DNA of 58,119 nucleotides from a virus (lineage: Duplodnaviria; Caudoviricetes): positions 1 to 58,119 of IMG/VR virus record IMGVR_UViG_3300046167_000289, one strand, 5' to 3'. A model generated the notes under the pieces. It did no database searches. It was not told the origin of the DNA and was given only the letters and a program-made list of their open reading frames with translations. This document shows positions 10,160 to 52,141 of the stretch, piece after piece. Every line of letters starts with the position of its first letter. The stretch's first letter is position 1. The translations under genes were made by a program, and so were the position numbers.

Positions 10160-10164
10160 AGTTA

Positions 10165-13843: not shown

Positions 13844-13844
13844 C

Positions 13845-15083: not shown

Positions 15084-15096
15084 ATATTTAATATTA

Positions 15097-15771
15097 TTAT
15101 TTTGTCCAATTTAATTTTGCTCCTTTACTTATATTATCTATTGCCCACAATGGTCTTAAGTTTGTATAATGACAAAGTTGTTTTAATTCTTGTTCTGTTT
15201 TTGCAGAAGCTAAAGGTATATTGTGGTCTATATGCCACTTTCCTTGATTATCCCAATTCATACCATTACTAAATTGATTTTCTATATGTTGTTTAGCAAC
15301 TTTCCAATCTACACCTAACATTTCTTGAGTTTTAGTGTTTTTAGAATAACCTTTGTTTTTAAAAGCATAATAAGTTCTTGACCTTAAATTATGTTTCATT
15401 TTAAATAAAGGCTCTGTTTCTTTTCTTTTTCTTTCGTATTCTTTTCTATATTCTCTATTAGCCTCTCTATATTCTTTTTGATACTTTTTATAATGCTCTT
15501 TATTATCTTCTTTATATACTTTATAATGTTCTTTAAGATACTCTTTATTTTCTTCTCTGTATTTCTTTTGATATTTCTTTATATCTTCTTTATTATCTTC
15601 AACGTATTTTTTACTACGTTCCTTTATAATTTCTGTATTTTTTTCGTAATATTTTTGATTGTATTTTTTTTTACAGCATTTACATTCATTTCTGTATCCA
15701 TCTTTAGATGATTTACGTTTAGGAAATTCAGTTAATAGTTTCTCTATTTTACAATGCTTACAAGTTTTCAT
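15097..15771 (-). CDS. HNH-type endonuclease with N-terminal Zn ribbon, copy A only
   Basis: CKHC...CKCC, K/E/Y-rich linker, WHIDHNIP...HYTNLRPLWAIDN. Confidence 0.8.
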   Translation of the reverse strand: MKTCKHCKIEKLLTEFPKRKSSKDGYRNECKCCKKKYNQKYYEKNTEIIKERSKKYVEDNKEDIKKYQKKYREENKEYLKEHYKVYKEDNKEHYKKYQKEYREANREYRKEYERKRKETEPLFKMKHNLRSRTYYAFKNKGYSKNTKTQEMLGVDWKVAKQHIENQFSNGMNWDNQGKWHIDHNIPLASAKTEQELKQLCHYTNLRPLWAIDNISKGAKLNWTK

Positions 15772-19635: not shown

Positions 19636-20069
19636 TATATTATGTATGTGTTATCATCTACTGTACTGTAAGGCTTGTAAATTGTGCCATTACCTATCTC
19701 GTGTTTCTCAGTTACTCTTTCAGAAGCAGTCTGAGATGTTGCGTATATCTTATCTCTATACCACAATTTATCATTGTTAGTTATCTCTAAGTAATAAGTA
19801 GAGTCTTCCTCAAGAATTGTTGGACTAAACTTAAGATTAGTAAAGTTTGAATCACTTGCTATATAAATAACATCTAAAACCTCTTCTTTACCATCTCCAT
19901 CTCTCCTTAATTTAATAGAATAATCCATAGTTAGGATAAAATCTAAACAAGTAGATTCTTCAAAAACTCCTCCCTCAGACAATACTCTTGCCTTTAGGGT
20001 GTTGTTAAAGACACTTCTCGCTGCAATACTAATTGTCTTTTCTCCTAATGTCGGTTCTAATATTAACAT
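19635..20069 (-). CDS. Putative structural protein (144 aa)
   Basis: Directly behind a late promoter, upstream of the portal. Confidence 0.65.
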   Translation of the reverse strand: MLILEPTLGEKTISIAARSVFNNTLKARVLSEGGVFEESTCLDFILTMDYSIKLRRDGDGKEEVLDVIYIASDSNFTNLKFSPTILEEDSTYYLEITNNDKLWYRDKIYATSQTASERVTEKHEIGNGTIYKPYSTVDDNTYII

Positions 20070-20074
20070 ACTAT

Positions 20075-20102
20075 GATAACTAAATAATTTATTTTTGTTT
20101 TA
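20075..20102 (-). promoter_or_regulatory. Putative late promoter
   Basis: TAAAAC-N16-GTTATC, ATG 5 nt downstream. Confidence 0.65.
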
Positions 20103-22207: not shown

Positions 22208-22226
22208 ACTTATTGATTTATATTAA

Positions 22227-22254
22227 TATAACTATTTAAAAATTTACTGTCTTA
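22227..22254 (-). promoter_or_regulatory. Putative late promoter (scaffold/capsid)
   Basis: TAAGAC-N16-GTTATA. Confidence 0.65.
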
Positions 22255-27694: not shown

Positions 27695-28831
27695 CTATCT
27701 AATATTGTTTATAGTATCGAATGATTTATCAAATTCTATTGTGTATTCTACTAATTTGTCATTTAAAGAAGTCTTGTAAGTAATATCACTTGTCTTAACA
27801 TTGATTGGTAAGACTTGCTCTCCATCTTCTGTGATGTTAGTAACCCATACCTTCTCAGATAACATCATCTGTTTAAACACCTCGTTATATTCTTCACTCA
27901 AAAATCCACTACTCAATGTAACAGATTCTTTACCTACTAAATTAAAATCTCTGTAAACGTGATTACTTCTATTGTATGTAGAGCCAGATAATATGTTTGA
28001 TTTATAAGATTCTTTTTCAACATTCATTCTTTCTACTGATTTCTTAAAGAAGTACATATCCTGTAAAGCACCAAACTTGTTTATAAACGTTACCTTTTTA
28101 GGTTCGTATTTACATTCTTCTAAAATCTCTACATTTATGATTTGAATACCATCACTATCTGAAACAACTATTTTATCTACTGCTCCTATTGAGTAATCAT
28201 TGAAGTATGCTTCTAAACATTTATTAGATTCATAATCTGTACCACCATTCTCTAAAACCCTCTCTTTAAAAGTATCCCAATTAGTAGTAGCTCCATAAAT
28301 AGAAACATACTTTATCTGTTCTGAACTTTGAGGATTTGATTGAAATATTGTAGTACCTACAATTTCATTATCTTTTAAAAATGTAACTGTTGGGCTTGAT
28401 TCGGTATAAATAGGTATTCTGAAAGTATTATCCTCTAAAACAAACAACTTTCTATTTGTAATCATTGTTGCGTCTTGCGATGTTGAAGATTGCTCAAAGT
28501 AATCATAACCATCTAAACATAAAGAAGTAAATCCATAGCCAGTAATTATATTACCACTTGCATTAAATGCTTGTAGTACAAAGTTTGCCCAAACTGGAGT
28601 AGATGAATAGTTACCATCAAAAGATGTTTCTATGTAATCTCTAATAAGTTCAGATACTTCAAATACTACTGTATCTCCTATATTTATAGCACTCTTACTT
28701 ATAACATAATCAGATTCTGGCGGAGGAGATGTTTCTATTCCAGTCCATATTTTTATAGTTAAAGTAACAGATGCTTGTAGGGCATTTGTAAATGGTATAT
28801 ATTTCGGACTTCTTACATTTATTATTGCCAT
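27695..28831 (-). CDS. Distal tail-like structural protein
   Basis: 378 aa; FINKFGALQ, TLSSGF, SEKVW. Confidence 0.6.
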   Translation of the reverse strand: MAIINVRSPKYIPFTNALQASVTLTIKIWTGIETSPPPESDYVISKSAINIGDTVVFEVSELIRDYIETSFDGNYSSTPVWANFVLQAFNASGNIITGYGFTSLCLDGYDYFEQSSTSQDATMITNRKLFVLEDNTFRIPIYTESSPTVTFLKDNEIVGTTIFQSNPQSSEQIKYVSIYGATTNWDTFKERVLENGGTDYESNKCLEAYFNDYSIGAVDKIVVSDSDGIQIINVEILEECKYEPKKVTFINKFGALQDMYFFKKSVERMNVEKESYKSNILSGSTYNRSNHVYRDFNLVGKESVTLSSGFLSEEYNEVFKQMMLSEKVWVTNITEDGEQVLPINVKTSDITYKTSLNDKLVEYTIEFDKSFDTINNIR

Positions 28832-29340
28832 TAGTTAATAGATTTTAATTTATCAAGGCTTAACAGTATATCCTTTCTGTAACCTTCTTTTAATATTGTT
28901 TTTATTTGTTCTTTAGTTTGTTCTTGTACTGCTTGTATAAATCCACTACCTTTATATCCAAATCTCTTAGAAATACCATTTTTCTTTATACCTCTCGCTA
29001 TTGCATTAGCTATAGACCTGTTGGTATAACTCTTTATTGAAACGTATCTTCCTTTCCTGTCTCTTGGTTGTATCCCTTTGTATTTCATCCAATTCAAGAT
29101 AGAATCTACAAACTTAGGACTGACTCCTTTAGAATTACTCTTATTTTTTATACCGTCAGATAAGGCATTTGCATACTGTTCTCCAAAAACGTATAACTCA
29201 TTATCCTCAACCCTATACTTAAAAGAACTATCTAATTTACCAGAAGCCTTGAACTTATCATTCTTAGCTTCTTGCTTTAGATTCTTTCTAATTAGCTTAC
29301 CAACCTCTCTCAAGGCTAATTTTAGGTTCTCTCCCTCCAT
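28831..29340 (-). CDS. Putative neck/tail completion protein
   Basis: Basic 169 aa, ASGKLDSS; in tail operon. Confidence 0.55.
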   Translation of the reverse strand: MEGENLKLALREVGKLIRKNLKQEAKNDKFKASGKLDSSFKYRVEDNELYVFGEQYANALSDGIKNKSNSKGVSPKFVDSILNWMKYKGIQPRDRKGRYVSIKSYTNRSIANAIARGIKKNGISKRFGYKGSGFIQAVQEQTKEQIKTILKEGYRKDILLSLDKLKSIN

Positions 29341-29798
29341 TAACAGATACTTATGCCATTAGGAATCTCTATTGATATATCTACACTCCAACCAGCTAAT
29401 TCGTTGCTAAAACGTTCTTTAAATGGTTGTGCAACAGGTTGTGTTGTTACTTGATAATTAATCTCAAACAAATCACCTCTCATCAACTTCATTATTAAAG
29501 AGTTTATAACCTCAAACTGAGTATTCATAACGTCTTGTAAGTTATCATTACCATAAAACAGTTCGTAATCAGATTTCTTAGTATTGTAATCAACTATGTC
29601 TGCACAAAGTAACTTAATATCAAAAACAACTGTTCTTTCCTTGTAATTAGCACTATCTATTAGCATATGCGATAATGGAAACATAGTTGTCTTATCTAAG
29701 TCAACATCAGTTATATCTCCGTAAGTAACAGTATTTACTGATGGGTTAGTTAATAACTCGTCTTTTATGACGTCTAATATGTCGTAAACGTGTGTCAT
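29340..29798 (-). CDS. Putative tail terminator protein
   Basis: 152 aa acidic; PFKERFSNELAGW. Confidence 0.55.
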   Translation of the reverse strand: MTHVYDILDVIKDELLTNPSVNTVTYGDITDVDLDKTTMFPLSHMLIDSANYKERTVVFDIKLLCADIVDYNTKKSDYELFYGNDNLQDVMNTQFEVINSLIMKLMRGDLFEINYQVTTQPVAQPFKERFSNELAGWSVDISIEIPNGISIC

Positions 29799-30564
29799 CT
29801 CATTTTTTGTTTTAACATTCTACTTTCTAATTCTGATTTTTCTTTTATAAACTCTAAATACATTAAACATTGGTGTAAAGGGAGTTCTGTAACTTCTCCG
29901 ATTCTTCTAACATCTTCTCCAGCGAGAGTAAATATTGCTTGATAGTCTCCCCATTTTTTACCGAATGCTCGTCCTGATGACCCTCCTGTTTCTTCTGTAA
30001 CTCTTTGAGTGTATAAGCCATCGTATAATTCCCTAATTTTGTCGCTAAACGATAAAAAAAAACCCTTGCACCAAGTGCAGCGTCTAATGGAGCGTCTCTC
30101 ATTACATCAGCCATATACTCTGTACCCTTGTAATCGTGTATAAGATACTTATCTTTACTCTTGAACTTAATTGGTCTGTAAAGAACTGCCATTGCTTTAT
30201 GGTAGTTGTCATTATCAAACATATATTTCTCTAAATCTATAAACTCACCATAACTCATTTTATCAAAGTTAGGTATCAAACCAAACTCAACAACAACATC
30301 ATCAGTTCCCTTTAAACTAAACTTATGTACAAGTTCTGGTTTCTCATTCAGTACAGATGATAAGTGGATTAAAGCATTGTCAAATACACTTAAACCTATC
30401 TTATCAACGTCTGATAACTTTATGTTACAGAATATCTCTAATACCTTTTTGTTTAGAAACTCAGCAGCATTCTCATCATCCTTATTCTTGTCGTAGACAT
30501 TAATATACTTTTGCCATTGACTCAACTTAATCCCTCTTAAATTTGCAGGTATAGTAAACTCCAT
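29795..30564 (-). CDS. Tail assembly chaperone-like gene with -1 frameshift (233 aa unshifted, about 256 aa shifted)
   Basis: Slippery GGGTTTTTTTTT at 30054-30065; -1 frame open to a TGA overlapping the next ATG. Confidence 0.7.
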
Positions 30565-30585
30565 AAATAATCAATCTTATATTAA

Positions 30586-30613
30586 GATAACTTAATTTAT
30601 TTTTTTTGTGTTA
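30586..30613 (-). promoter_or_regulatory. Putative late promoter (tail operon)
   Basis: TAACAC-N16-GTTATC. Confidence 0.65.
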
Positions 30614-30616
30614 ATT

Positions 30617-30648
30617 TTTGCTATAATGAATAATTTTAGTTATATTTG
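30617..30648 (+). promoter_or_regulatory. Bacteroidota-type promoter, divergent from the tail promoter
   Basis: TTTG-N20-TATATTTG. Confidence 0.7.
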
Positions 30649-30659
30649 CCTAAGAAGTA

Positions 30660-30908
30660 TTGACTATGAATATTTTAGATGAGAAGTTAAGTATTAGGTT
30701 TATGAAGTTTAAATGCTTAGACACTAATAGAATATACAGAGTAGTAGAAACTATCTCTACATTTGATTTAAAGAAGCCTCACTACTTCGATAAAGTTAAA
30801 GAATGTAAAGACACAGTAAAGAGAGATGATGGTGTTAGAAAGTCTTTTAAGAGGGAGCAGTTAGGTGATAGGTTTAAGAATATAGAAGGAATAATAAGTA
30901 AATACTAA
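30660..30908 (+). CDS. Hypothetical protein (start uncertain)
   Basis: First ORF of the plus-strand operon. Confidence 0.65.
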   Translation: MTMNILDEKLSIRFMKFKCLDTNRIYRVVETISTFDLKKPHYFDKVKECKDTVKRDDGVRKSFKREQLGDRFKNIEGIISKY

Positions 30909-30918
30909 AATAACAATT

Positions 30919-31284
30919 ATGAATGAACAACAAATAACAAAAGAATCCATTTCGTACCTAAAGTCAGTACTACTGTCTCAATTACTATTAGAAGCTAATG
31001 AGGAACTTGTAGCTACCAACAGGTATAAACAAAGCCTAAAACAACAACTAAACAGAACAAACAGTCTATTAGAGCCTATCGTAAGAGAAGAGTTTGATAA
31101 TATCTACAAGACAGACCCTGATATGGCAACCAATATACTAAACAAAGTAGAGTGTGTTATAGATAAAATAGCATCATACCAGATAGAAGAGTTGATAATA
31201 CTTGAATCTATTGTAGATAAATATGAGAACAATAAAGAATGGTTCTTGAAATATGCTGAATCTGATTTCCTAAGACTTGACTAA
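30919..31284 (+). CDS. Hypothetical protein (121 aa)
   Basis: ATG with A-rich leader, helical protein. Confidence 0.75.
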   Translation: MNEQQITKESISYLKSVLLSQLLLEANEELVATNRYKQSLKQQLNRTNSLLEPIVREEFDNIYKTDPDMATNILNKVECVIDKIASYQIEELIILESIVDKYENNKEWFLKYAESDFLRLD

Positions 31285-31285
31285 T

Positions 31286-32374
31286 ATGGAATTCAAGCTA
31301 AACAACCTTGAATATGCTTGGGTAGGCAATGAATTAAGACACATAGCAAGTGGAAATAAGTCTGATAAGTATTTCTTAGACGAAGACTTAACTATACCGC
31401 TTGTGTTCTGTAAGGGTGTTAAGATAAAGAGCTACTGGAGAAAAGAACCTAATATAGATGACTCTGTTATTAGAGACTTCTTTGGTTCATCTGAATCTGT
31501 AGAACATTACAATAAGAAGATAGAACTATCTAAATCTTTGGAGTTACAGTTCGGTAAGCATTTAATTATAGGAAACTCCTCTAAAGTAGAGTATAGAGTT
31601 AAATCTATAAATAAGATTATAGACCTAATATTCTTAGATAAGAATGGAGATATTCTTATAGGTATTGAGGTTTTATGCACAAACAAAAAAACATATAAAG
31701 ACATTAAAAAGTTTAACGAAGTAAAATTCCCAATATATGAGTATAATATTAACACAGGAGAAGTCTATCCAATTAGCTCAGGATGTACTAATACAGAAGA
31801 AATTAAAGTTTTGTCAAGACAGATTAGAGAAATTGAACAAAGTATCAGCGAAAATAAACCAAGACTTATTAGAGGCAAGGAATTCCTACTCAGACAACGA
31901 AATAGTATTAAAGGACTTAAAAAAGGAATTAAAAGAATTGATGATAAACGTAAGAAAATCTGGAGAGACTATTACAGATTTGAAGAACAAGAATCACACT
32001 ACGATTCAGAAGAAATCATTGAGAGTGAAATTAGAGAAACTAATAAAAGAAGAGAATATTTTAGAAGAGAAATTAATTTATTTAACGAAGTCGAGGAGGA
32101 ATCCCTTAGTAAAGAAATTGAATACTTTGCAGAAAAAGAAAGACAAGATATTAAGTCCGTTACAGAACAAATTGAAAACTTTGACGATAGCGAAAGAAGA
32201 GAGACTGAAGCCCTTAGAATTCAAATTGATAGACTCGAGAATCAAACTGGAGATGTTTCAAGGCTTACAAAAGGAGTATCAGCTCTTAATGCAAAACATT
32301 ACGAACATACCTCTATTGAAAATAGAAACAAAAAACTTAGAGAAGAAATTAAAAGAATTACAGAATCAAATTAA
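31286..32374 (+). CDS. CoiA-like PD-(D/E)XK nuclease with charged C-terminal tail
   Basis: ESVEHY...VEY...IIDL...IGIEVLCT. Confidence 0.55.
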   Translation: MEFKLNNLEYAWVGNELRHIASGNKSDKYFLDEDLTIPLVFCKGVKIKSYWRKEPNIDDSVIRDFFGSSESVEHYNKKIELSKSLELQFGKHLIIGNSSKVEYRVKSINKIIDLIFLDKNGDILIGIEVLCTNKKTYKDIKKFNEVKFPIYEYNINTGEVYPISSGCTNTEEIKVLSRQIREIEQSISENKPRLIRGKEFLLRQRNSIKGLKKGIKRIDDKRKKIWRDYYRFEEQESHYDSEEIIESEIRETNKRREYFRREINLFNEVEEESLSKEIEYFAEKERQDIKSVTEQIENFDDSERRETEALRIQIDRLENQTGDVSRLTKGVSALNAKHYEHTSIENRNKKLREEIKRITESN

Positions 32375-32378
32375 TTAA
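31737..32378 (+). CDS. Coiled-coil protein overlapping the nuclease gene in another frame
   Basis: 213-codon ATG-started ORF with L/K/E/Q heptad pattern. Confidence 0.5.
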   Translation: MSIILTQEKSIQLAQDVLIQKKLKFCQDRLEKLNKVSAKINQDLLEARNSYSDNEIVLKDLKKELKELMINVRKSGETITDLKNKNHTTIQKKSLRVKLEKLIKEENILEEKLIYLTKSRRNPLVKKLNTLQKKKDKILSPLQNKLKTLTIAKEERLKPLEFKLIDSRIKLEMFQGLQKEYQLLMQNITNIPLLKIETKNLEKKLKELQNQIN

Positions 32379-32388
32379 AACAATCATT

Positions 32389-32547
32389 ATGAAAAAAAGA
32401 CTAACACAAAAGTTACAACAACTAATAGATAACTTACCTACAGGTAACAAAAGAAAAGAAGCTAAAGAAGACCTACTAAGTCTTAAACTAAGCCAAAGCG
32501 ATTACCATTACATAATGTTAGCTGATAAGTATAAAGATAATCTATAG
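32389..32547 (+). CDS. Hypothetical protein (52 aa)
   Basis: MKKRLTQKLQQLID...; A-rich leader. Confidence 0.6.
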   Translation: MKKRLTQKLQQLIDNLPTGNKRKEAKEDLLSLKLSQSDYHYIMLADKYKDNL

Positions 32548-32581
32548 TACATAGATAAACTATATTATTTATTTATAGTAG

Positions 32582-32609
32582 CAAAACAAAAATTAATTAT
32601 TTAGTTATA
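32582..32609 (+). promoter_or_regulatory. Putative late promoter facing a non-coding region
   Basis: CAAAAC-N16-GTTATA; nearly identical to the promoter at 20075-20102. Confidence 0.65.
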
Positions 32610-32612
32610 TTA

Positions 32613-32835
32613 ATATACAGAGTTGTAGTTCTCTTTAACCTACCAAACTTTAGTCATAATCGTAAGGCTATTGGTTCAGATACATTAAGTCTCCTTAGTA
32701 ATTGCATCTATAACCTTTATAGTCTTCGTAGCACCCAATAGATATTCAAACTAACGAGCATACCAGTTATATCAGTTAACTAACAATTAACATACATTAA
32801 GACTTTAGGAGGGTGCATATCTAACCATCGAGCAT
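32613..32835 (+). ncRNA. Candidate late-expressed structured non-coding RNA
   Basis: Late promoter, no ATG for about 310 nt, several complementary segments. Confidence 0.4.
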
Positions 32836-32838
32836 ATA

Positions 32839-32961
32839 ATTATATTTTCAAAATTAGTTTACCTGTTTATAACAAAAAGATATTAGACTATAATCAGTCT
32901 TGGACTAATTATTATATTTTCAAAATTGATATGTCAGTTTTAAACGAAAAGATATTTGACT
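32839..32961. repeat. Two imperfect ~51-bp direct repeats, 72-bp period
   Basis: ATTATATTTTCAAAATT...AAAAGATATT(A/T)GACT at 32839 and 32911. Confidence 0.75.
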
Positions 32962-33389
32962 TATGGTTGAATTCATCGAAGTGACATACTACACAATCCT
33001 AATCTTTGATTTACGCCATTATCTCTATCTATGTGGTATGTTAGTATACATTTAATATTTGAGTGGCTTAGAATGGCTTATATTGAGTTTTGAATATCGG
33101 TTTAAATTCCTATAATATATCCCCATACAGAACCAAGCAATTAAAAAAATAACTGTATAAAAAAATACTATTACAAAATGAATTATAATAGTATTAATTA
33201 ATAGGTTAAAATGTAGTTTTAATTTTCTTTGTAAGCATCAAACCCTATAACCTCAACGAAACCCATATCTAAACTATTTAATAGTTGTTTATATATTTTA
33301 GTTCGTTTGGGATGTTTACAGTCTCTTATGCCTGCAATGTGTTTTGTACCGCCTTCTTTAAAGTAGTAGTGAAATTGTATTTTCATATA

Positions 33390-33593
33390 TTAAAAAGTTA
33401 TTTTATTAAATTGTTTTTTTATACAGCTTATTGCCTTGAAACTTTCGAACCTATTTTTATATCGATACAAATCATTTGTTAGTACATAGCTTTCGATATA
33501 AGTTTTATGCTCGTTTAAATTGTAGCAAATAAAACCTTTATTTGTTGTTAGTAATTTGATTGTTAAATTAGTGTTAGTTCTTATGGTATCCAT
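33390..33593 (-). CDS. Small early protein (67 aa)
   Basis: Shares LTNDL.R....F with 35364-35567. Confidence 0.6.
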   Translation of the reverse strand: MDTIRTNTNLTIKLLTTNKGFICYNLNEHKTYIESYVLTNDLYRYKNRFESFKAISCIKKQFNKITF

Positions 33594-33605
33594 ATTGTTT
33601 TGTTT

Positions 33606-34223
33606 TTAGTGATAGATTAATCCTACTTTGTTGTTATTTGGGTTGATGTATTTTGATGCAAACAAATCTATTTTTGAAGCGTTGATATATCCCGCTTTTT
33701 TTAGTTCTGTTTCTGTTTTAAAAATCTTTGTATGGCGGTCTTTATTTTTATCTATTAAATTAGTTTGTTTACCACTGTCCGAAAATATAAAATCAAAATT
33801 GTTTGGTATTGAATCGCTATTGTTTTTTACGATGGAAATGCTATTTGTATAAGCATAAAATTTAACGTTTGGCAATTGCTCGGCAATCTGCATCCAATCT
33901 AAAAAATACTTATTAGAATAAAAATCTCCGCTATCGTGTACCCTTAAAAAATCAACACGCTTTTTTATTATTTCCGCTTTCATTATCTCAATGAAATCTT
34001 TTTGCTTTGTTAAATTATATCTTTGCTCAAAAACCTTTGCAACGTTTGACCAAACATAAGCACCTTTTTTAGCGTAACAAAATTTAATACATTTATCCGC
34101 AAAAGGGCAAGTAATTTTCCCCTTACTTGTTTTATATGCCGTTATCCCAAAGTTAAAGACTCTTAATCCGAGTTCCTTTGATGTCTTTTTTAATTTACTG
34201 TTTTGTGTTATTATTGATTTCAT
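33606..34223 (-). CDS. GP88-like protein (Cys-triad, radical-SAM-like)
   Basis: TCPFADKCIKFCYA, RVHDSGDF, FYAYT. Confidence 0.75.
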   Translation of the reverse strand: MKSIITQNSKLKKTSKELGLRVFNFGITAYKTSKGKITCPFADKCIKFCYAKKGAYVWSNVAKVFEQRYNLTKQKDFIEIMKAEIIKKRVDFLRVHDSGDFYSNKYFLDWMQIAEQLPNVKFYAYTNSISIVKNNSDSIPNNFDFIFSDSGKQTNLIDKNKDRHTKIFKTETELKKAGYINASKIDLFASKYINPNNNKVGLIYH

Positions 34224-34234
34224 AATTATATGTA

Positions 34235-34390
34235 TTAAAAAGGTAATTCTACTAATTTATTAATAAGTTTTATTTTTTCGTTTGCTATTTCTGTTTGGAT
34301 TTCAATCTCTAATTTATCGATATGATGCAATAAATATAAATTGTCTGTTGCCGTTGCAAAATCTCTAATTTGTTGTATTGTTTCTTTCAT
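34235..34390 (-). CDS. Small early protein (51 aa)
   Basis: MKETIQQIRDFATA...ELPF. Confidence 0.55.
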   Translation of the reverse strand: MKETIQQIRDFATATDNLYLLHHIDKLEIEIQTEIANEKIKLINKLVELPF

Positions 34391-34394
34391 TGTT

Positions 34395-34538
34395 TTAATT
34401 TTTAAAATGTATTTTGTGAATACTTAAAGTTTTTAGTGTTGGATATATCCAATTTTGTTTTACTCCTTGAATCTGAAGAGATTGTATTAATAAAAATTTT
34501 AAGTTTAAAAAATCATTAATGTTTGATTGATTTGTCAT
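34395..34538 (-). CDS. Small early protein (47 aa)
   Basis: MTNQSNINDF...; first ORF after the promoter. Confidence 0.45.
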   Translation of the reverse strand: MTNQSNINDFLNLKFLLIQSLQIQGVKQNWIYPTLKTLSIHKIHFKN

Positions 34539-34579
34539 AATTTTTATTTTTAATTTGTTATTAATTCTTATTTACATTT

Positions 34580-34609
34580 CAAAGATACAACTTATTTTGG
34601 AATAAACAA
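34580..34609 (-). promoter_or_regulatory. Bacteroidota-type early promoter
   Basis: TTG-N19-TATCTTTG with AT-rich upstream region. Confidence 0.75.
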
Positions 34610-34814
34610 CAAAAAACCAAAAAAAATGTAAAAATAACACAAAAATAATTTTTCAACGTTTTTAGCTGATGTATCAAAACTTTAAATTTGAAGTATAATT
34701 TTAAAGTAATGAACGCATACGCAACTACAATAATTTTTTCACATACACAAATAAATTTACTATTTATTTTCAGTCTAAATAAGCTATTTAGAAGCGTTCC
34801 AAATAACAAAAATA

Positions 34815-34907
34815 CCCCCATCATATTAAACGACCCCCATTATATTAAACATAGGGCATCATATTAAACACCCCTCCATATTAAACAATCCCCATTATAT
34901 TAAACAT
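34815..34907. repeat. Iteron-like array 1: five CCCCATYATATTAAAC-type units
   Basis: ATATTAAAC cores end at 34831, 34850, 34869, 34886, 34905. Confidence 0.9.
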
Positions 34908-34912
34908 AAAGC

Positions 34913-34939
34913 AAAAAAAAAGCCTCGTTAAAGGCTTTC
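34913..34939 (-). terminator. Intrinsic terminator
   Basis: AAAGCCT/AGGCTTT stem plus U run. Confidence 0.65.
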
Positions 34940-34945
34940 TTTGTT

Positions 34946-35149
34946 TTAATACCATTCTAAAAAATTAATAATTGAATCGTATTCACTATAGATTGATTCG
35001 TTATTGTATTTAGACTCGTAAAACTCTTTATAGTATCCTTTAATGGATGGAAAGGCATCATCATAGGGTAACTCCTTTAGAGGATGTTTTGTGTCTGCAA
35101 ACTGCGTTAAATTGTAGAATAGAAATTCGTGATAATTTATTGTTGTCAT
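34946..35149 (-). CDS. Small early protein (67 aa)
   Basis: Packed ORF in early operon. Confidence 0.65.
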   Translation of the reverse strand: MTTINYHEFLFYNLTQFADTKHPLKELPYDDAFPSIKGYYKEFYESKYNNESIYSEYDSIINFLEWY

Positions 35150-35152
35150 ATC

Positions 35153-35359
35153 TTATAATTGTTTTAAGGTTTCTTTTAATCTATCTTTTAAATCTTTGTT
35201 TTCTTTGTTCACCTCTTTAATAGCTAAATAGAGTAAGGAATCTAAATCTTGTAGTAAATTACGAGCATTGAATACTACTGTATTATTGTCATTTTGAATA
35301 TGTACTTCGCCATCTTGCGACCAAATTGTGTGTGTTTCGTGTATATATGTATGTTTCAT
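35153..35359 (-). CDS. Small early protein (68 aa)
   Basis: Packed ORF. Confidence 0.7.
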   Translation of the reverse strand: MKHTYIHETHTIWSQDGEVHIQNDNNTVVFNARNLLQDLDSLLYLAIKEVNKENKDLKDRLKETLKQL

Positions 35360-35363
35360 AATC

Positions 35364-35567
35364 TTATAAATTTATATTAATTATTCTTAATTGTTTTTTT
35401 ACTATATCAGTCAGCAGAAACTTACTGTTGATGCCAAACTTTTTTCTATGCCTTGTCAAATCATTTGTAAGAATCATCTTATCAAGATTATTATTTGTTT
35501 CAGTATAGACTATAAAATCTTTTTTAGTAGTGTAGATTTGTACTGCTTTAAGGATGTTTATGTTCAT
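35364..35567 (-). CDS. Small early protein (67 aa)
   Basis: Packed ORF; similar to 33390-33593. Confidence 0.65.
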   Translation of the reverse strand: MNINILKAVQIYTTKKDFIVYTETNNNLDKMILTNDLTRHRKKFGINSKFLLTDIVKKQLRIININL

Positions 35568-35590
35568 ATTATTTAGTTTTATTGTTTCTA

Positions 35591-36028
35591 TTAATCTTCA
35601 AATAATGTTTCTATCTTATACTGCACATCATCTATTCCACTTAAAATATCTTGTACATCATCGTGGTAATCATCATTATGGCTTTTAGTTAAATCCATTA
35701 TAATTCTGTAGGCATCATCTAATAGTTCGATTGATGTTTTTATATTCTGCTTTTTATTCTGTACCGTATTATACGCTTGAGAACCCGATTTTATAAGTTT
35801 ATCCCAATTATCAACCTCTCTTACTAATATATCATCATCATCTCTTGTCTCTATAATCTCAACAACATATTGTTCATTTGAGATGCAGTTACAAAGTATT
35901 TGTATTTGATATAAATCATCTTCTGCTACCCAATCTTTACCAAATATTTTTTCTGCTTGTCTTTCTAAATTGTTTCTTCCAACGAAGCCATATGTAGATG
36001 TATATCTACCTTCTAAATTATTTTTCAT
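35591..36028 (-). CDS. Hypothetical early protein (145 aa)
   Basis: ATG with TAAATAAT leader. Confidence 0.7.
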   Translation of the reverse strand: MKNNLEGRYTSTYGFVGRNNLERQAEKIFGKDWVAEDDLYQIQILCNCISNEQYVVEIIETRDDDDILVREVDNWDKLIKSGSQAYNTVQNKKQNIKTSIELLDDAYRIIMDLTKSHNDDYHDDVQDILSGIDDVQYKIETLFED

Positions 36029-36039
36029 ATTATTTAGTT

Positions 36040-36453
36040 TTAATTATAATTATTTTCATATTTTACATTTAACTGTTTGTACATTTGATAATCCATACCT
36101 ATTTGTTCTAAAATGTATTGTGTTGTTTCGCCATCTAAATCAGCAGATTTAAGTTTACTTATTAATACTTCAATTTTATTTACTTTTATAAATTGGACTA
36201 CTGCATCGTATGTAGTTTTAAACTTACTACCTATTGTTTCTATATGAAATAACTCTTCTACAGAATGGTCAGTATTGTTGCTTACTTTACATCTACTCTC
36301 GACTATTGTAAATTCATAACCAAGACTTTCTATCTTCTCAACTACACGCATCAGCCAATCCCAAGAGGTGTTATAGTTAGGTGTGACATACTCGCCCATC
36401 TCTTGATGGTCTTCCATTCCCATAAATTCTGCTATTAGTTTATTGTTATTCAT
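36040..36453 (-). CDS. Hypothetical early protein (NKLIAEFMG/SWDWLM type)
   Basis: Likely start MNNNKLIAEFMG just after the upstream stop. Confidence 0.7.
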   Translation of the reverse strand: MNNNKLIAEFMGMEDHQEMGEYVTPNYNTSWDWLMRVVEKIESLGYEFTIVESRCKVSNNTDHSVEELFHIETIGSKFKTTYDAVVQFIKVNKIEVLISKLKSADLDGETTQYILEQIGMDYQMYKQLNVKYENNYN

Positions 36454-36454
36454 A

Positions 36455-36916
36455 TTATTTAGTTTTGATTCCATATTGTTTTTCAATGTTATAATTAATT
36501 GCTCCTTTTATGGTGTTTTTAGGTGATTTTACCAAAAGCAATAGTCTTGCAATCTCTTCCATAACTTCTTCCTCTTTTGTCTCCTCGCAATAACAATCAC
36601 TATATCTTTCTATAAATAATTTTCTAACTAAATCCATATGATACCAATCCAAGCAATTTCCATACATCTGATTAAAATCTTCTCCTTTGCCATCATTCCA
36701 TTGTTTAACCCAATTTAGATATGGGGAATTATCACTAAACATAACCTCGTTAACAAGTTCACATATTGTATCGTAGTACATCTGATGACCACCTCCTCCA
36801 TCTAACCAAGCAAAATATTCAAGCCTTACAAGAGGATACATATCTGATGCACACGCACACAGAATCATATCATAATTTTCTTTAGTAATTTGTTTTTGTT
36901 TTTCGTTTAATAACAT
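36455..36916 (-). CDS. Hypothetical early protein (153 aa)
   Basis: First ORF after the promoter at 36957. Confidence 0.7.
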   Translation of the reverse strand: MLLNEKQKQITKENYDMILCACASDMYPLVRLEYFAWLDGGGGHQMYYDTICELVNEVMFSDNSPYLNWVKQWNDGKGEDFNQMYGNCLDWYHMDLVRKLFIERYSDCYCEETKEEEVMEEIARLLLLVKSPKNTIKGAINYNIEKQYGIKTK

Positions 36917-36956
36917 ATTATTTAGTTTTAATAGATAACTTAATTGCTAACTGAGG

Positions 36957-36986
36957 CAAATATACATCTTTTTTTTAATTACACAA
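36957..36986 (-). promoter_or_regulatory. Bacteroidota-type early promoter
   Basis: TTG-N19-TATATTTG. Confidence 0.75.
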
Positions 36987-37161
36987 CAAAAAAAATAAAA
37001 AACTTCACAATTTAACTTTTTTTATGAATTGCTACCTCTTAATACTATTCTAAATTTGTAACAGAACTTAATAAAGGAACACGTGCATACGTCTACAACA
37101 ATTTTTTCATATAACAAAATAAATCTACTAATAAATTTTGGTATGAGTGATAACGAGTTGC

Positions 37162-37269
37162 ACCCCATTATATTAAACATAGGATTACCCCATTATATTA
37201 AACATACCCCATCATATTAAACAAAAAAAAAGGGAGACAAAATTAATTGACCCCCTTCATATTAAACAT
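37162..37269. repeat. Iteron-like array 2: four CCCCATYATATTAAAC-type units with embedded terminator-like hairpin
   Basis: Cores end at 37178, 37203, 37222, 37267. Confidence 0.9.
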
Positions 37270-37276
37270 TTTATTT

Positions 37277-38488
37277 TTATCTTATCACATAAACTCCAGA
37301 GTTTACTCCTTGAACTAAATACATTAATCCATAACGGATTGCATCCAAAAAATGATTAAACTTATCTATTGGTGCTTCACCCTTATCTTTCCATACATAG
37401 TTGTTTAGCTCTCTTATTATACCGTGAGAACCTCTATCTACTATTATCTCATAATCTTGCATAAGTGCTATACCAGATAATATACTACCTTTCTTCTTTA
37501 CTGTAGGTTTTATGTTAAGACCCAATGTTTTCATCTCTGATATTAAACGTGGCTCACTATTATCACAAATAATTAAATCCATACCACACTCTCTTCTATT
37601 CATACCTGCTATCTCAGATGTGTTTAGATTAGGTTTTCCGTAGATTTCCTTAACCCAAACCTTTCTTGCGTTCTTATCTACCGAAATCTTCACAAGTGTC
37701 GTTAAATCGGCTGAAAATCCAAAATCTTGTCCATAGCAAGTAAGTTCTGTAGGAATAAAGTCTCCAACTCTCCATTTTCTTATAATAGTACCCTCTGCTT
37801 TCTCAAGCCAACCTCCTAATATTTGGTGCTGGTATTTATCTGGTCTCTTACGTTTCATCTCGTAAATTCTCTCTAAGAATGATTGAGATAAGTTCTTCTT
37901 ATTATCTTTGTAAGTTGTATGAACATAAGTAACGTTACCTTTAATCATATTAGAAGCTGCCAATACGTTTTCATTTTGGAAGAACCTCTGATATATCCAA
38001 TGCTCTTTAGTTGTTGGATTCAGTATAAGAATAACTCTGTTCTGTTTAGTTTGTGAACGTATAGAGAAGTCAATCTTATCAAATGTACCCTCATCTACAA
38101 GTTCCTCTGCTTCATCTACAACAAATGTTGTTATACCATTCAAGGATTTAAGTGCAGCAGTTTGGTTACCAGATGACGTTCTAATACCTTTAAATATTAT
38201 AGAGCTACCTGTCTTTAGGTTCATAATCTCATCTTTAGTTATCCTAAAGTCATCGTGAACTCCCATTAAGTTAATCTTCTCAATAAATTCAGGTATAATA
38301 GATGTATGTGCTGACATCATTGTATAACGTGAGAACAGTATCTTATGACCTTGTTCATAGGTTAGGTTAAGTAAGAATACGTTTATACCAAACGACTTAC
38401 CACTACCCCTACCTCCTGTAACAACAAAATACCTGCTATCATTCTTGAAAACAGGTATGTATTTTTCGTGTATGTCTATCTTACTCAT
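37277..38488 (-). CDS. terL: Terminase large subunit (PBSX/XtmB-like)
   Basis: GGRGSGKS, VVDEAEE, LNP, GQDFGF, NHFLDAIRY. Confidence 0.95.
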   Translation of the reverse strand: MSKIDIHEKYIPVFKNDSRYFVVTGGRGSGKSFGINVFLLNLTYEQGHKILFSRYTMMSAHTSIIPEFIEKINLMGVHDDFRITKDEIMNLKTGSSIIFKGIRTSSGNQTAALKSLNGITTFVVDEAEELVDEGTFDKIDFSIRSQTKQNRVILILNPTTKEHWIYQRFFQNENVLAASNMIKGNVTYVHTTYKDNKKNLSQSFLERIYEMKRKRPDKYQHQILGGWLEKAEGTIIRKWRVGDFIPTELTCYGQDFGFSADLTTLVKISVDKNARKVWVKEIYGKPNLNTSEIAGMNRRECGMDLIICDNSEPRLISEMKTLGLNIKPTVKKKGSILSGIALMQDYEIIVDRGSHGIIRELNNYVWKDKGEAPIDKFNHFLDAIRYGLMYLVQGVNSGVYVIR

Positions 38489-38867
38489 CCTTTGGTGTTA
38501 CGTCTATAATCTTCTCTTTAATCTTCTTACCCTCGATACTATCTCCAAAGAAATTAATTACAGGAGCATTAGGTTTCTTAGTAGAGGTTTCCTTGTCTTC
38601 ATCATAAGCATAGTCCATAAGTAATTTCATATGATTGTAGCTACCTTCTTTTGCTTTCTCAGCTAAACTCTCAAAAGCATTTACCTCACTACCAAATACA
38701 TTCTTGATAGCTTTCTTAGCATATTGCTTCTTACGATTCTTCTTAGCAGTATTCATTGCAGGTTTGTTAGACCTCTCTTTATCTGGTACAGGTAGCTTGG
38801 GAATAGATTTCTTTCTACTATTCCCTTTTCTACCATCTGTTGGCTTAATCTCTTGTGAATTACTCAT
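38481..38867 (-). CDS. Probable terminase small subunit
   Basis: Basic 128 aa overlapping the terL start, behind a late promoter. Confidence 0.55.
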   Translation of the reverse strand: MSNSQEIKPTDGRKGNSRKKSIPKLPVPDKERSNKPAMNTAKKNRKKQYAKKAIKNVFGSEVNAFESLAEKAKEGSYNHMKLLMDYAYDEDKETSTKKPNAPVINFFGDSIEGKKIKEKIIDVTPKDE

Positions 38868-38872
38868 ATTAT

Positions 38873-38901
38873 GATAACTAATGTGTTGTTGTTTTGTTTT
38901 T
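38873..38901 (-). promoter_or_regulatory. Putative late promoter (terminase)
   Basis: AAAAAC-N17-GTTATC, ATG 5 nt downstream. Confidence 0.6.
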
Positions 38902-41534: not shown

Positions 41535-42032
41535 CTATTTATAAACTTGCAAGTACTTTTTAAGTTTATTCACTACTCCTGATATACAAGGAGAGCAACT
41601 TGTGTTAGTTTTCTGATTGGTATTGAAGATGTTATTGTGTATGGTAATCAATCTTACTTTCTGCTCATTAGTTATTTTTCTTGTATTGCTATCTACAAAA
41701 TCACTTAAGTAAGTATAATCATCTTCTGAGATACAGTTTATCTTTTTATAAGTAAACAACTTATTTAACTGAACTTGTCTCTCATCACAACCACAGTCCT
41801 CACCAGCTATAAATTTCACTAACTTGTCTACTCCTGTAGCCTTAGTAATCTTAGCTACTGTATCACCTACACCTTTTGATTGTGCTTCTACATTCTGCTT
41901 TAACTTACTGTAGTCTTCACTTCTCTTAGATGCTTTCCATTCTTTATACTCTCTGTAATCTTTAGACCTCTTGTCTATAGTTTCGTAGTATCCTTGTTTC
42001 TCTAATTCTAAATAATAATTATCTGGTCTCAT
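41535..42032 (-). CDS. Cys-rich hypothetical phage protein
   Basis: Copy of 4665-5162. Confidence 0.8.
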   Translation of the reverse strand: MRPDNYYLELEKQGYYETIDKRSKDYREYKEWKASKRSEDYSKLKQNVEAQSKGVGDTVAKITKATGVDKLVKFIAGEDCGCDERQVQLNKLFTYKKINCISEDDYTYLSDFVDSNTRKITNEQKVRLITIHNNIFNTNQKTNTSCSPCISGVVNKLKKYLQVYK

Positions 42033-42559
42033 ATCTTGTCAAAATCTTGGTTAAAGTAATCTATTAAATCTTCTGATAAATGTTCTCTTAATATAGCTTT
42101 TTGGTTTAGTATAGAATTATGTATGGAAGTTAATCCTATCTTAGCACCTTTAGATATTGCTCGTAACGACAAGCCTTGTATAAAGTATAACTCAAACAAC
42201 CTCCTGTCATAAACAGTCCAATCGGATATTATATTTTCTACCTGCTTCATTATAGCGCTAAACGCATCGTCTTCTGCTATATCATATGGTGATTCAACAA
42301 CCTCATCATTCTCTAATATCTCATAGAAAATACTATTTCTTTTATCTTTTAAATAAGAATAGTAAAGGTTTCTCAATGTAATCCATACAAAGTACCTGTT
42401 AACATCATCCTTATACATAATCCTACTCTCATCTTTCACAAGTCTGTGCATCCTCAGATACATATCTTGAACTAAGTCTTTAGCAACATCAGTCTTACAA
42501 CCTAAATTCACTAACATCTTAATCCACAGCTCGTGATGAACTGCTAACTTTTCTAACAT
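42029..42559 (-). CDS. ECF-like sigma factor
   Basis: Copy of 5159-5689. Confidence 0.8.
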   Translation of the reverse strand: MLEKLAVHHELWIKMLVNLGCKTDVAKDLVQDMYLRMHRLVKDESRIMYKDDVNRYFVWITLRNLYYSYLKDKRNSIFYEILENDEVVESPYDIAEDDAFSAIMKQVENIISDWTVYDRRLFELYFIQGLSLRAISKGAKIGLTSIHNSILNQKAILREHLSEDLIDYFNQDFDKI

Positions 42560-50854: not shown

Positions 50855-50855
50855 C

Positions 50856-52139: not shown

Positions 52140-52141
52140 AT

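What the first reader, a model, noticed from the sequence alone, without database searches (positions are those of the whole stretch)
32582..32835. Late promoter facing an ATG-free, potentially structured region: candidate novel phage ncRNA
Seen: AAAACAAAAATTAATTATTTAGTTAT differs by one base from the pre-portal promoter and continues AGTTATATTAATATA exactly like the capsid promoter, yet no ATG follows until about 32931. Complementary segments: ACCAA..TAGTC/GGCTA.TTGGT (32642-32675), CTATA/TATAG (32708-32722), GCACCC/GGGTGC (32731/32811), CTCCT/AGGAG (32691/32807), TGGTT(C)AGATA/TATCTAACCA (32672/32818). CGAGCATA and ATACATTAAG each occur twice. It is the only plus-strand instance of the late motif noticed. 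Inference: a ~220-nt RNA co-expressed with virion genes, perhaps in packaging/assembly (phi29 pRNA is a precedent), regulation of the convergent early operon, or anti-defence.
Basis: partly seen in the sequence, partly recalled or inferred. Interest (0 to 1): 0.8.

Follow-up and report, generated by a model that had tools for sequence, protein, structure and literature searches.

The report
Conserved non-coding RNA gene in marine phage
A marine Flavobacteriales phage carries a promoter-headed, ORF-free stretch that is far better conserved than its neighbouring genes and most likely encodes a previously undescribed small structured RNA of unknown role.

Summary
The promoter-like motif is real: three copies against none expected. 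The gap has a single ATG, at 32931. All listed complementary words are at their coordinates. That complementarity is not above chance, however (folding z-scores -0.98 to +0.31 on either strand), and this is not the only plus-strand motif copy (a second TAGTTAT lies at 30637).

The element (about 32583-32965) occurs in 23 IMG/VR contigs of related marine phages. In 20 of them its core is 94-100% identical to the window, while flanks are 66-93% identical. It is non-coding and matches no Rfam family, tRNA or tmRNA. The few substitutions fit plus-strand base pairing: two compensatory pairs, five wobble-only pairs, and G-U asymmetry.

The same motif heads the terminase, portal, capsid and tail operons. 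The phage also encodes a sigma-like protein. In one relative the slot holds an 83-aa gene behind the same promoter-like motif.

Homing-type nuclease genes insert just upstream. RNA-library contigs cover the element, and one carries a head-to-tail joint at 32802 to 32614.

Verdict: a probable new phage ncRNA gene (about 0.55). Its function is unknown, and no link to phi29 packaging RNA (pRNA) is supported.

The parts
32583..32616 (+). Promoter-like signal: AAAACA, 13 nt, TAGTTAT, then ATTAAT AT
   Evidence: Motif copies are far above chance. The TAGTTAT..TAAT.TACAGAG part is present with fixed spacing in all 17 homologues whose sequence reaches this far. The left edge of homology in L029 lies at AAAACA, and in L031/L036/L044 at TTTAGTTAT.
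32614..32855 (+). Conserved body of the candidate RNA. The 5' end is inferred at 32614-32618; the 3' end is not established.
   Evidence: The stretch 32610-32855 is 94.2-100% identical in 20 loci and 85.9/86.7% in L048/L049. It has no ORF. Contigs of 4 RNA libraries cover it, and the joint 32802 to 32614 lies within it.
32619..32634 (+). Hairpin P1 (AGAG / CUCU, 8-nt loop)
   Evidence: All 4 pairs are invariant. The only changes (32623-32624) fall in the loop.
32642..32675 (+). Hairpin P2 (ACCAA..UAGUC / GGCUA.UUGGU)
   Evidence: Pair 32654-32667 is U-G in 10, C-G in 5 and U-A in 1 distinct sequence. Pair 32644-32673 goes C-G to U-G in 2. Two pairs have unpaired cells. The 3-nt deletion in L031-type sequences lies in the loop.
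32696..32823 (+). Central domain: an interrupted long stem (UAG/CUA, UGCAUCU/GGGUGCA, CCU/AGG, AGUCUU/AAGACU) closing a junction with two hairpins (32752-32769, 32775-32791)
   Evidence: This is the RNAalifold consensus of 22 sequences. Compensatory changes occur at 32722/32803 (A-U 10, G-C 6, G-U 4, no A-C) and at 32779/32787 (A-U 12, G-C 8). Wobble-only changes occur at 3 further pairs.
32836..32889 (+). Copy 1 of a 54-nt A/U-rich repeat (degenerate hairpin)
   Evidence: Direct repeat D1, 80% alike, spacing 72. Copy number varies: L031/L036 and L044 have one copy.
32908..32961 (+). Copy 2 of the repeat, with hairpin AAAAUUGA-UAUG-UCAGUUUU (32922-32941). It is a candidate weak terminator of the unit.
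   Evidence: The same element directly follows the 83-aa ORF in L011, where the 3' arm reads UCGAUUUU, so the U-G and U-A pairs swap places (read by eye). The consensus terminator scan finds none here.
32966..33218 (.). Less conserved right part of the gap, with short repeats and an A/T-flanked inverted repeat (33156-33203) at the end of the convergent minus-strand genes
   Evidence: The equivalent gap of distant relatives holds 49-nt tandem repeats.
32389..32547 (+). 52-aa ORF, last gene of the plus-strand cluster, upstream of the element
   Evidence: It is present upstream of the element in L007, L029 and L048. It has no family match. A homologue without the element occurs in L006.
42029..42559 (-). 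Sigma-factor-like ORF (second copy at 5159-5689), candidate reader of the motif
   Evidence: phrog_1740 'RNA polymerase sigma factor', E 7.9e-8. Pfam Sigma70_r2 reaches only E 0.065, below cut-off. ESM Atlas neighbours are viral sigma-70/ECF clusters at 0.97-0.99. There is no PDB sequence match.

Best explanation
The stretch from about 32583 to 32965 is a self-contained, non-coding transcription unit of an uncultured marine Flavobacteriales phage.

A phage-specific promoter (AAAACA, 13 nt, TAGTTAT) drives it. The same signal heads the terminase, portal, capsid and tail operons. It is probably read by host RNA polymerase carrying the phage's own sigma-like protein.

Transcription of a plus-strand RNA starts about 6-10 nt behind TAGTTAT, at 32614-32618. 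The RNA has two 5' hairpins and a central domain (32696-32823) made of a long interrupted stem closing a junction with two hairpins. Long invariant unpaired stretches sit within this domain. One or two copies of a 54-nt A/U-rich hairpin repeat follow and probably end the transcript.

The unit is an accessory cassette. Close relatives share it almost unchanged, one relative has an 83-aa gene in the same slot, and more distant relatives lack it.

Shown: the conservation, the lack of coding capacity, the motif class, the plus-strand-compatible substitutions, and presence in RNA libraries.

Inferred: that the RNA is made late, and that it acts in trans as a protein-binding or decoy RNA in host takeover or anti-defence (my preferred mechanism, about 0.25 on its own).
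For: Non-coding, with no known family:
- No ORF, no Rfam match, no tRNA or tmRNA.

Conservation:
- 23 IMG/VR contigs hold the element.
- The core is 94.2-100% identical in 20 loci, against 66-93% for flanking DNA including coding regions.
- Even in the more distant L048/L049 the core is 86-87% identical.

Promoter class:
- 6 matches to TAGTTATMWTARTAT against 0.64 expected, and 0 of 100 shuffles reach 6.
- The matches lie before the terS-like ORF plus TerL, the pre-portal ORF, the capsid module and the 233-aa ORF.
- The motif is conserved before the same genes in relatives L053 and L056.
- The phage has a sigma-like ORF.

Cassette logic:
- L011 has a TAGTTAT motif, an 83-aa ORF and the same downstream hairpin element in this slot.

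Structure, on 42 curated pairs:
- 33 never vary, 2 show compensatory double changes (14 cells), 5 vary on one side only, and 2 depart only by unpaired cells.
- 99.0% of 784 cells are paired.
- The covariation score is 0.064, against 0.044 +/- 0.004 in shuffles (0 of 500 reach it) and at most 0.029 when partners are slid.

Strand:
- The same pairs are 99.0% standard on the + strand and 91.5% on the - strand, over 826 cells.

RNA libraries:
- Contigs of 4 of 4 marine metatranscriptome runs that were laid cover the element.
- One run (X15) has a joint from 32802 back to 32614 in its deepest contig. That places a molecule end at the expected start site.
Against: - Folding energy is ordinary on both strands.
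- On the unbiased single-sequence MFE structure (72 pairs), 11 pairs have unpaired cells, against 2 compensatory and 2 one-sided. Only part of any model is therefore supported, and the curated model was chosen with these same sequences.
- The homologues are few and closely related. The two 'compensatory' pairs could be linked haplotype sites: 32803 is fully linked to 32805, and 32779 to 32785.
- RNA-library contigs cannot show strand, ends or level, and may include DNA.
- Several RNA-library contigs run on upstream of the putative start: X17 record 21 begins at 32567, and X15 record 3 and X16 record 10 bridge from upstream genes.
- No consensus terminator is found.
- Homing-endonuclease genes directly upstream could homogenise the stretch by gene conversion without any RNA function.
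- Nothing is shown about function.
Confidence: 0.55

Rival explanations
1. This is a DNA-level element, not an RNA gene. The block would be the recognition and co-conversion region of the free-standing homing endonucleases that insert just upstream, or another protein-bound DNA site such as a regulatory region or origin. Repeated gene conversion among co-infecting phages would keep it nearly identical.
For: - A homing-endonuclease-like gene lies directly upstream of the motif in L007/L031/L036, L029 and L033 (phrog_314 E 4.3e-9 for L029).
- An HNH/EndoVII-like gene sits in the cluster in L048.
- Conservation is far stronger than a weakly folding RNA needs.
- There are internal direct repeats of 17-18 nt.
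- Iteron-like tandem repeats occur in the same gap of relatives.
- Many metagenome contigs break inside the element.
Against: - The block's left edge coincides with a promoter motif in all contexts, whether or not an endonuclease gene is present.
- Changes fit G-U-tolerant pairing on one strand only.
- The duplicated words are not kept in L048/L049.
- The slot holds an ordinary promoter-plus-gene unit in L011.
- The iteron-like part lies to the right of the block and exists in relatives that lack the block.
Confidence: 0.2
2. The unit makes a cis-acting transcript. Late transcription from the motif would run into the repeat-bearing right part of the gap. There it would either activate or prime replication (as with ColE1 RNA II or T4 R-loop origins; these comparisons are recalled), or act as antisense to the 3' ends of the convergent minus-strand operon.
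For: - The unit points at the short-repeat region 32966-33100 and at the convergent genes 33219 onward.
- No strong terminator is found.
- The X18 contig runs from 32583 through 33165 and on into the GP88-like gene.
- Relatives without the element still have a repeat-bearing gap.
Against: - The conserved, covarying part is not antisense to any ORF.
- Relatives do without it, and L011 puts a protein gene there.
- The promoter class is that of virion genes, not of the recombination and nuclease genes such as Erf and exonuclease.
- No replication initiator was identified near it.
Confidence: 0.15
3. The element is a packaging RNA of the phi29 pRNA kind, which would sit on the portal during DNA packaging.
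For: Only circumstantial: it shares the promoter class of the portal and terminase operons, and its size is of the same order.
Against: - No match to any Rfam model even at E up to 10.
- The phage has a classical large terminase and a terS-like ORF.
- The element is missing from relatives with the same portal and terminase.
Confidence: 0.03
4. The element is a small protein gene with a non-ATG start, or one read in another genetic code.
For: One frame is open for 60 codons (32559-32741), and the L031-type indel is 3 nt long.
Against: - From the putative RNA start (32614-32618) that frame has no ATG, GTG or TTG before its stop at 32741 (read by eye).
- Most of the substitutions in that frame would change the amino acid (read by eye).
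- The best-conserved part, 32742-32855, is closed in all frames.
- The rest of the genome reads normally in code 11.
Confidence: 0.02

Closest known systems
Phage T4/T6 tRNA-region RNA genes with the SegB homing endonuclease (PMC13096335; abstract, section 10 and three passages read)
   Same: - A free-standing homing-type endonuclease gene sits within 1 kb of a phage RNA gene.
- The RNA locus is accessory.
- In T6 the locus is amplified in tandem through microhomology. Here one RNA-library contig shows a head-to-tail joint with TATA on both sides.
   Different: - The RNA here is not a tRNA.
- Homology of these nucleases to SegB was not tested.
- Amplification at the DNA level is not shown.
- The host is a Flavobacteriales bacterium, not E. 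coli.
phi29 packaging RNA (pRNA)
   Same: A phage-encoded RNA of roughly 170-250 nt.
   Different: - No covariance-model match.
- This phage has a classical terminase.
- The element is dispensable in relatives.
- That pRNA comes from an early promoter is recalled, not tested.
Lambda late 6S transcript from pR' (recalled)
   Same: A late-type promoter followed by about 200 nt of non-coding transcript and a terminator-like hairpin.
   Different: In lambda the leader precedes the late genes and serves Q antitermination. Here no gene follows on the same strand.
Large phage-associated structured RNAs of unknown function (GOLLD, ROOL and the like) and the IMG/VR candidate structured RNAs of PMC10690425 (passages read)
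   Same: Conserved, non-coding, found in phage genomes, function unknown.
   Different: - No Rfam match.
- The element is much smaller than GOLLD or ROOL.
- It is longer than the 29-151-nt candidates of PMC10690425. That paper's lists are in supplements I could not open, so overlap with part of this element cannot be excluded.
ColE1 RNA II / T4 R-loop origins (recalled)
   Same: A promoter-driven structured non-coding transcript pointing at a repeat-bearing, possibly replicative region.
   Different: No evidence here for an origin, RNase H processing or a persistent hybrid. Relatives keep the repeats without the RNA.

Membership tests
phi29-type pRNA | Match to the family's covariance model | tested here: not met
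   cmscan of the whole window at gathering score found 0 matches. For 32500-33250 at E up to 10, the only hit was an irrelevant 12.7-bit REN-SRE.
phi29-type pRNA | A phi29-like packaging system rather than a TerS/TerL terminase (feature recalled) | tested here: not met
   ORF 37277-38488 matches large-terminase PHROGs (E 1.9e-42) and is preceded by a 128-aa ORF.
tRNA / tmRNA / tRNA-like | Cloverleaf or tmRNA architecture | tested here: not met
   ARAGORN found 0 genes in the window.
6S RNA and other Rfam bacterial or phage ncRNA families (including GOLLD, ROOL, HEARO, self-cleaving ribozymes, group I introns) | Match to a curated covariance model | tested here: not met
Group I intron carrying a homing endonuclease | Interrupts a host gene whose exons flank it | tested here: not met
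   No ORF is split here. The flanks are a complete 52-aa ORF and a convergent gene end. The endonuclease genes are free-standing.
Lambda pR'-type late leader (Q antitermination) | Late genes downstream on the same strand | tested here: not met
   The next genes (33219 onward) are on the opposite strand.
This phage's TAGTTAT promoter class | Sequence match to the shared motif | tested here: met
   0 mismatches to TAGTTATMWTARTAT at 32602-32616. There are 6 matches against 0.64 expected. The 26-nt upstream part is 1 mismatch from the pre-portal copy.
This phage's TAGTTAT promoter class | Intergenic, oriented toward a unit, conserved in relatives | tested here: met
   The motif is present in all 17 homologues that reach it, and before the pre-portal and capsid ORFs of L053 and L056.
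This phage's TAGTTAT promoter class | Mapped transcription start and dependence on the phage sigma-like factor | not testable with these tools
   There is only a hint: a joint with a molecule end at 32614-32618 in one RNA library. The sigma assignment rests on PHROG E 7.9e-8 and Atlas neighbours, while Pfam is below cut-off.
SegB-type endonuclease / RNA-gene association | Homing endonuclease gene within 1 kb of the RNA gene | tested here: met
   L029 (ORF 9289-10329, element from 10316), L007/L031/L036, and L033 (about 1.1 kb insert). The window itself has no such gene at that spot.
SegB-type endonuclease / RNA-gene association | Tandem amplification of the RNA locus in DNA | tested here: inconclusive
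   One head-to-tail joint in an RNA-library contig. None of the 23 IMG/VR contigs shows a duplicated core.

The most novel reading that the evidence does not exclude
The RNA is an anti-defence or host-takeover RNA whose dose is raised by head-to-tail multiplication. The joint from 32802 back to 32614 in the deepest RNA-library contig would reflect one of two things. Either it is a circular RNA of about 190 nt made from a phage gene, or it is a tandem amplification of the locus driven by the neighbouring homing endonucleases. The latter would be a non-tRNA counterpart of SegB-driven tRNA amplification.
Probability: 0.08. Interest if true: 0.85.

Novelty: new variant of a known kind. Interest (0 to 1): 0.55.

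Why it matters
Phage non-coding RNAs are few, and mostly of unknown role.

This one has a defined promoter class and a probable phage sigma-like factor. It sits in a cassette-like slot with an alternative protein cargo. It lies next to a hot spot for homing-type nucleases, and its sequence recurs in marine metagenome and metatranscriptome runs.

If it is a trans-acting RNA, it offers a tractable entry into RNA-based host takeover or counter-defence in Flavobacteriales phages, a group with almost no molecular genetics. If instead the conservation is a by-product of homing, it is a clean natural example of gene-conversion tracts shaping phage intergenic DNA.

The promoter motif itself is a useful annotation key for the late genes of this phage group. 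In the terS-like and pre-portal units the ATG lies exactly 6 nt behind TAGTTAT.

Tried and rejected
Searches that found nothing useful:
- Rfam at gathering score and at E up to 10: nothing.
- ARAGORN: nothing.
- BLAST of 32380-33220 against 50,697 phage records: no match.
- Consensus terminator scan: 0 found. Sigma-70 scan: 5 found against 8.3 expected.
- nhmmer and a covariance model of the central domain (R1) on the distant relatives L006 and L011-L026: only chance-level hits at E 2 and 6.9.
- R1 on the two MAG genomes that hold portal relatives: 0 of 2.
- R1 on 151 genomes of the order of G001: 0 of 151. No positive control genome exists, so this shows only 'not found in those searched'.
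- Exact 12-13-mers shared with the rest of the window, as possible antisense targets: 11 and 1 hits, judged by my own rough estimate to be near chance.
- The 15-mer scan gave three extra loci (L050-L052). These are chance SD-plus-ATG contexts.

Hypotheses rejected:
- Folding energy as evidence of structure.
- A coding reading.

Data not usable as evidence:
- Depth along the stretch in the RNA libraries. It is one figure per contig, the core is shared by many strains, and parts without cover (31674-32341) lie in an accessory gene.
- Shares of words in RNA against DNA runs, as evidence of expression.

Steps not completed:
- I did not search for the joint sequence itself, because that would have needed a joined sequence to be typed.

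Full report
**What the window is.** The window is a 58,119-nt IMG/VR virus record. It holds about 1.57 genome lengths: roughly 21 kb at the left end recurs at an offset of about 36.9 kb, with 94-99.8% identity. The finding lies in the single-copy part.

The nearest cultured relatives of the portal are Nonlabens (Persicivirga) phages P12024S/L, at 33% identity. Closer portal relatives sit on contigs binned into Flavobacteriales and Cryomorphaceae MAGs. The runs that hold the stretch are marine or seawater metagenomes by their records. This is therefore an uncultured marine Flavobacteriales phage.

**The observation.** The 26-nt motif is at 32583-32608 (+). One-mismatch copies lie at 20076-20101 and 56996-57021 (-), giving 3 matches against 0 expected. 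Those two minus-strand copies are the same locus in the duplicated part.

The motif's 3' half continues exactly as the sequence in front of the capsid-module ORFs at 22219-22239. Between 32609 and 32935 there is one ATG, at 32931. No start-codon ORF of 25 aa or more lies in 32548-32962, and all frames carry stops across the core.

Two points fail:
- The complementarity is not above chance. MFE z-scores range from -0.93 to +0.31 on the + strand and from -0.45 to -0.98 on the - strand over six sub-windows.
- This is not the only plus-strand copy of the motif. A TAGTTAT stands at 30637 (+), in front of the plus-strand gene cluster.

**The motif as a promoter class.** TAGTTATMWTARTAT occurs 6 times with at most 1 mismatch, against 0.64 expected, and 0 of 100 shuffles reach 6. 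After removing the duplicate this is five loci. All are intergenic and point at the unit behind them:

| Position | Strand | Unit behind it |
|---|---|---|
| 38866-38880 | - | 128-aa terS-like ORF and TerL |
| 20068-20082 | - | 144-aa ORF and the portal, just after a hairpin-plus-T-run |
| 22220-22234 | - | 158-aa and 310-aa ORFs of the capsid module |
| 30579-30593 | - | 233-aa ORF |
| 32602-32616 | + | the finding |

In the terS-like and pre-portal copies the ATG lies exactly 6 nt behind TAGTTAT. The same holds in relatives L053 and L056.

The phage has a 176-aa sigma-like ORF at 42029-42559. It matches phrog_1740 at E 7.9e-8. Pfam Sigma70_r2 reaches only E 0.065. Its ESM Atlas neighbours are viral sigma-70/ECF clusters at 0.97-0.99.

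'Late promoter' is thus a reasonable inference from the genes it heads. No timing data exist.

**Conservation.** Three word scans of IMG/VR found the element in 23 contigs. Three further 15-mer hits were chance.

Over 32610-32855, twenty loci are 94.2-100% identical to the window. DNA on either side, including coding DNA, is 66-93% identical in the eight long loci compared. L048 and L049 are more distant phages with the same gene order, and there the core is 85.9% and 86.7% identical.

The left edge of the conserved block is the motif in every context. In L029 homology starts at AAAACA, directly after an endonuclease gene. In L031, L036 and L044 it starts at TTTAGTTAT. To the right the block runs through one or two copies of a 54-nt repeat (32836-32889 and 32908-32961) and then decays.

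The element is absent from the more distant relatives L012-L024, from L006 and from L011. In L011 the same slot holds a TAGTTAT motif, an 83-aa ORF and then the same hairpin-repeat element. The locus therefore behaves as a promoter-to-terminator cassette with exchangeable cargo.

**RNA structure and strand.** The substitutions are few, so power is low.

On the MFE structure of the window sequence alone (72 pairs, chosen without seeing the variation), 57 pairs never vary. Two show compensatory double changes, 2 change on one side only, and 11 have some unpaired cells. The outer and 5' helices of that model are therefore not supported.

After adding L048 and L049, RNAalifold keeps a central domain, 32696-32823. 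A curated model of that domain plus two 5' hairpins has 42 pairs:
- 33 are invariant, 2 compensatory, 5 change on one side only, and 2 depart only by unpaired cells.
- 99.0% of 784 cells are paired.
- The covariation score is 0.064, against 0.044 +/- 0.004 in shuffles (0 of 500 reach it) and at most 0.029 when partners are slid.

The two compensatory pairs are 32722/32803 (A-U 10, G-C 6, G-U 4, no A-C) and 32779/32787 (A-U 12, G-C 8). The same pairs are 99.0% standard on the + strand and 91.5% on the - strand. This agrees with the direction of the promoter.

Three caveats apply:
- The curated model was selected on these same sequences.
- The sequences are closely related.
- Both compensatory pairs sit in blocks of fully linked sites, so haplotype linkage could imitate covariation.

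Long unpaired stretches (for example 32727-32751) are as invariant as the stems. That points to constraints beyond secondary structure.

**RNA libraries.** Six metatranscriptome runs hold 17-33% of the sampled words of 32400-33250. I laid four of them, as Logan contigs, on 28000-38000. Contigs of all four cover the element. Some also run on upstream of the putative start: X17 record 21 starts at 32567, and X15 record 3 and X16 record 10 bridge from upstream genes. Contigs show neither strand nor ends, and the libraries may contain DNA. This shows presence, not a defined transcript.

One item stands out. Run X15 has a joint from 32802 back to 32614, with one letter between, in a contig of depth 92.7. 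That is the highest depth among the X15 contigs shown, and the bin depths fit a contig covering only about 32614-32802.

Both sides of the joint share TATA, if the common 32803-T / 32805-A variant is assumed. The simplest reading is template switching by reverse transcriptase from the 5' end of an abundant RNA. That would place a 5' end at 32614-32618, which is 6-10 nt behind TAGTTAT and where the ATG stands in the terS-like and pre-portal units. A circular RNA or a tandem DNA duplication would give the same joint.

**Neighbourhood.** Just upstream of the motif is a hot spot for nuclease genes:
- A homing-endonuclease-like ORF in L007/L031/L036, L029 and L033. The L029 ORF matches phrog_314 at E 4.3e-9. 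The GIY-YIG assignment is by eye.
- An HNH/EndoVII-like 229-aa ORF in L048.
- A 365-aa ORF without family matches in the window.

SegB-type endonucleases are known to sit beside phage tRNA genes and to drive tandem amplification of such anti-defence loci (PMC13096335; abstract, section 10 and passages read). This is the closest described architecture, but the RNA here is not a tRNA, and homology to SegB was not tested.

The right part of the gap (32966-33218) has only short repeats in the window. Distant relatives carry 49-nt tandem repeats there. That part probably has a DNA-level role of its own.

**Conclusion.** The best reading (0.55) is a new accessory phage gene for a plus-strand structured non-coding RNA, driven by the phage's virion-gene promoter class. 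I prefer a trans-acting, protein-binding or decoy role late in infection. The reasons are the cassette behaviour, the invariant single-stranded stretches and the nuclease hot spot. That step is inference.

The rivals are:
- A DNA-level homing or gene-conversion or protein-binding block (0.2).
- A cis-acting transcript serving replication or antisense control (0.15).
- A pRNA-like packaging RNA (0.03).
- A cryptic coding region (0.02).

No paper among those listed by my four searches describes this element. For those listings I saw only titles and abstract starts, apart from the two papers I opened. A survey of IMG/VR intergenic regions reports 8,495 candidate structured RNAs of 29-151 nt (PMC10690425, passages read). 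Its lists are in supplements I could not open, so part of this element may already be catalogued there.

Noticed in passing
window 1-21198 vs 36900-58119: The record holds two non-identical copies (94-99.8%) of about 21 kb at an offset of about 36.9 kb. This looks like a concatemer or an assembly of two strain variants. The tail-protein region differs between them (12599-15771 against 49667-52684), and only the second copy has an HNH endonuclease ORF (52142-52684).
   Followed up: partly
window 38866-38880 (-), 20068-20082 (-); L053:2548, L056:275: In the terS-like and pre-portal units the ATG lies exactly 6 nt after TAGTTAT, which suggests leaderless or near-leaderless late mRNAs. The spacing is kept in relatives.
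   Followed up: partly
window 42029-42559 (-) and 5159-5689 (-): A 176-aa sigma-factor-like ORF lies among the recombination and nuclease genes (Erf, RusA, exonuclease). It is a candidate reader of the TAGTTAT promoters.
   Followed up: partly
L007:5664-6758, L029:9289-10329, L048:5039-5728, window 31277-32374: At least three different nuclease-type or unknown ORFs occupy the same spot in the plus-strand cluster just upstream of the element in different contigs. The 3' end of the L007 endonuclease ORF resembles the 3' end of the 52-aa ORF.
   Followed up: partly
L011:1911-2300 (- strand of the locus): A relative has a TAGTTAT motif, an 83-aa ORF (weak DUF6549 hit, E 0.0036) and the same downstream hairpin repeat, where the window has the non-coding element.
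   Followed up: partly
L015:2091-2188, L018:5424-5528: Distant relatives carry 49-nt tandem direct repeats (iteron-like) in the equivalent convergent gap. By eye they also have a host-type TAnnTTTG promoter (consensus recalled) followed by a hairpin-plus-T-run, which suggests a different small transcript there.
   Followed up: partly
window 35591-36916 (-): Three tandem paralogous ORFs (145, 148 and 153 aa) are joined by the same junction word AAAACTAAATAAT(G). None has a family match.
   Followed up: no
window 32802/32614 (run X15): A head-to-tail joint of a unit of about 190 nt appears in the deepest RNA-library contig. It could reflect template switching, a circular RNA or a tandem copy.
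   Followed up: partly
L053, L054, L055 (one Flavobacteriales MAG): Three separate contigs of one MAG each encode a portal relative (65-74% identity). These are probably several related phages binned with, or infecting, that organism.
   Followed up: no
window 32675-32692/32787-32804 and 32746-32762/32820-32836: Two pairs of internal direct repeats (18 and 17 nt) alternate inside the RNA body. The second copy of the 17-nt word is not kept in L048/L049.
   Followed up: partly
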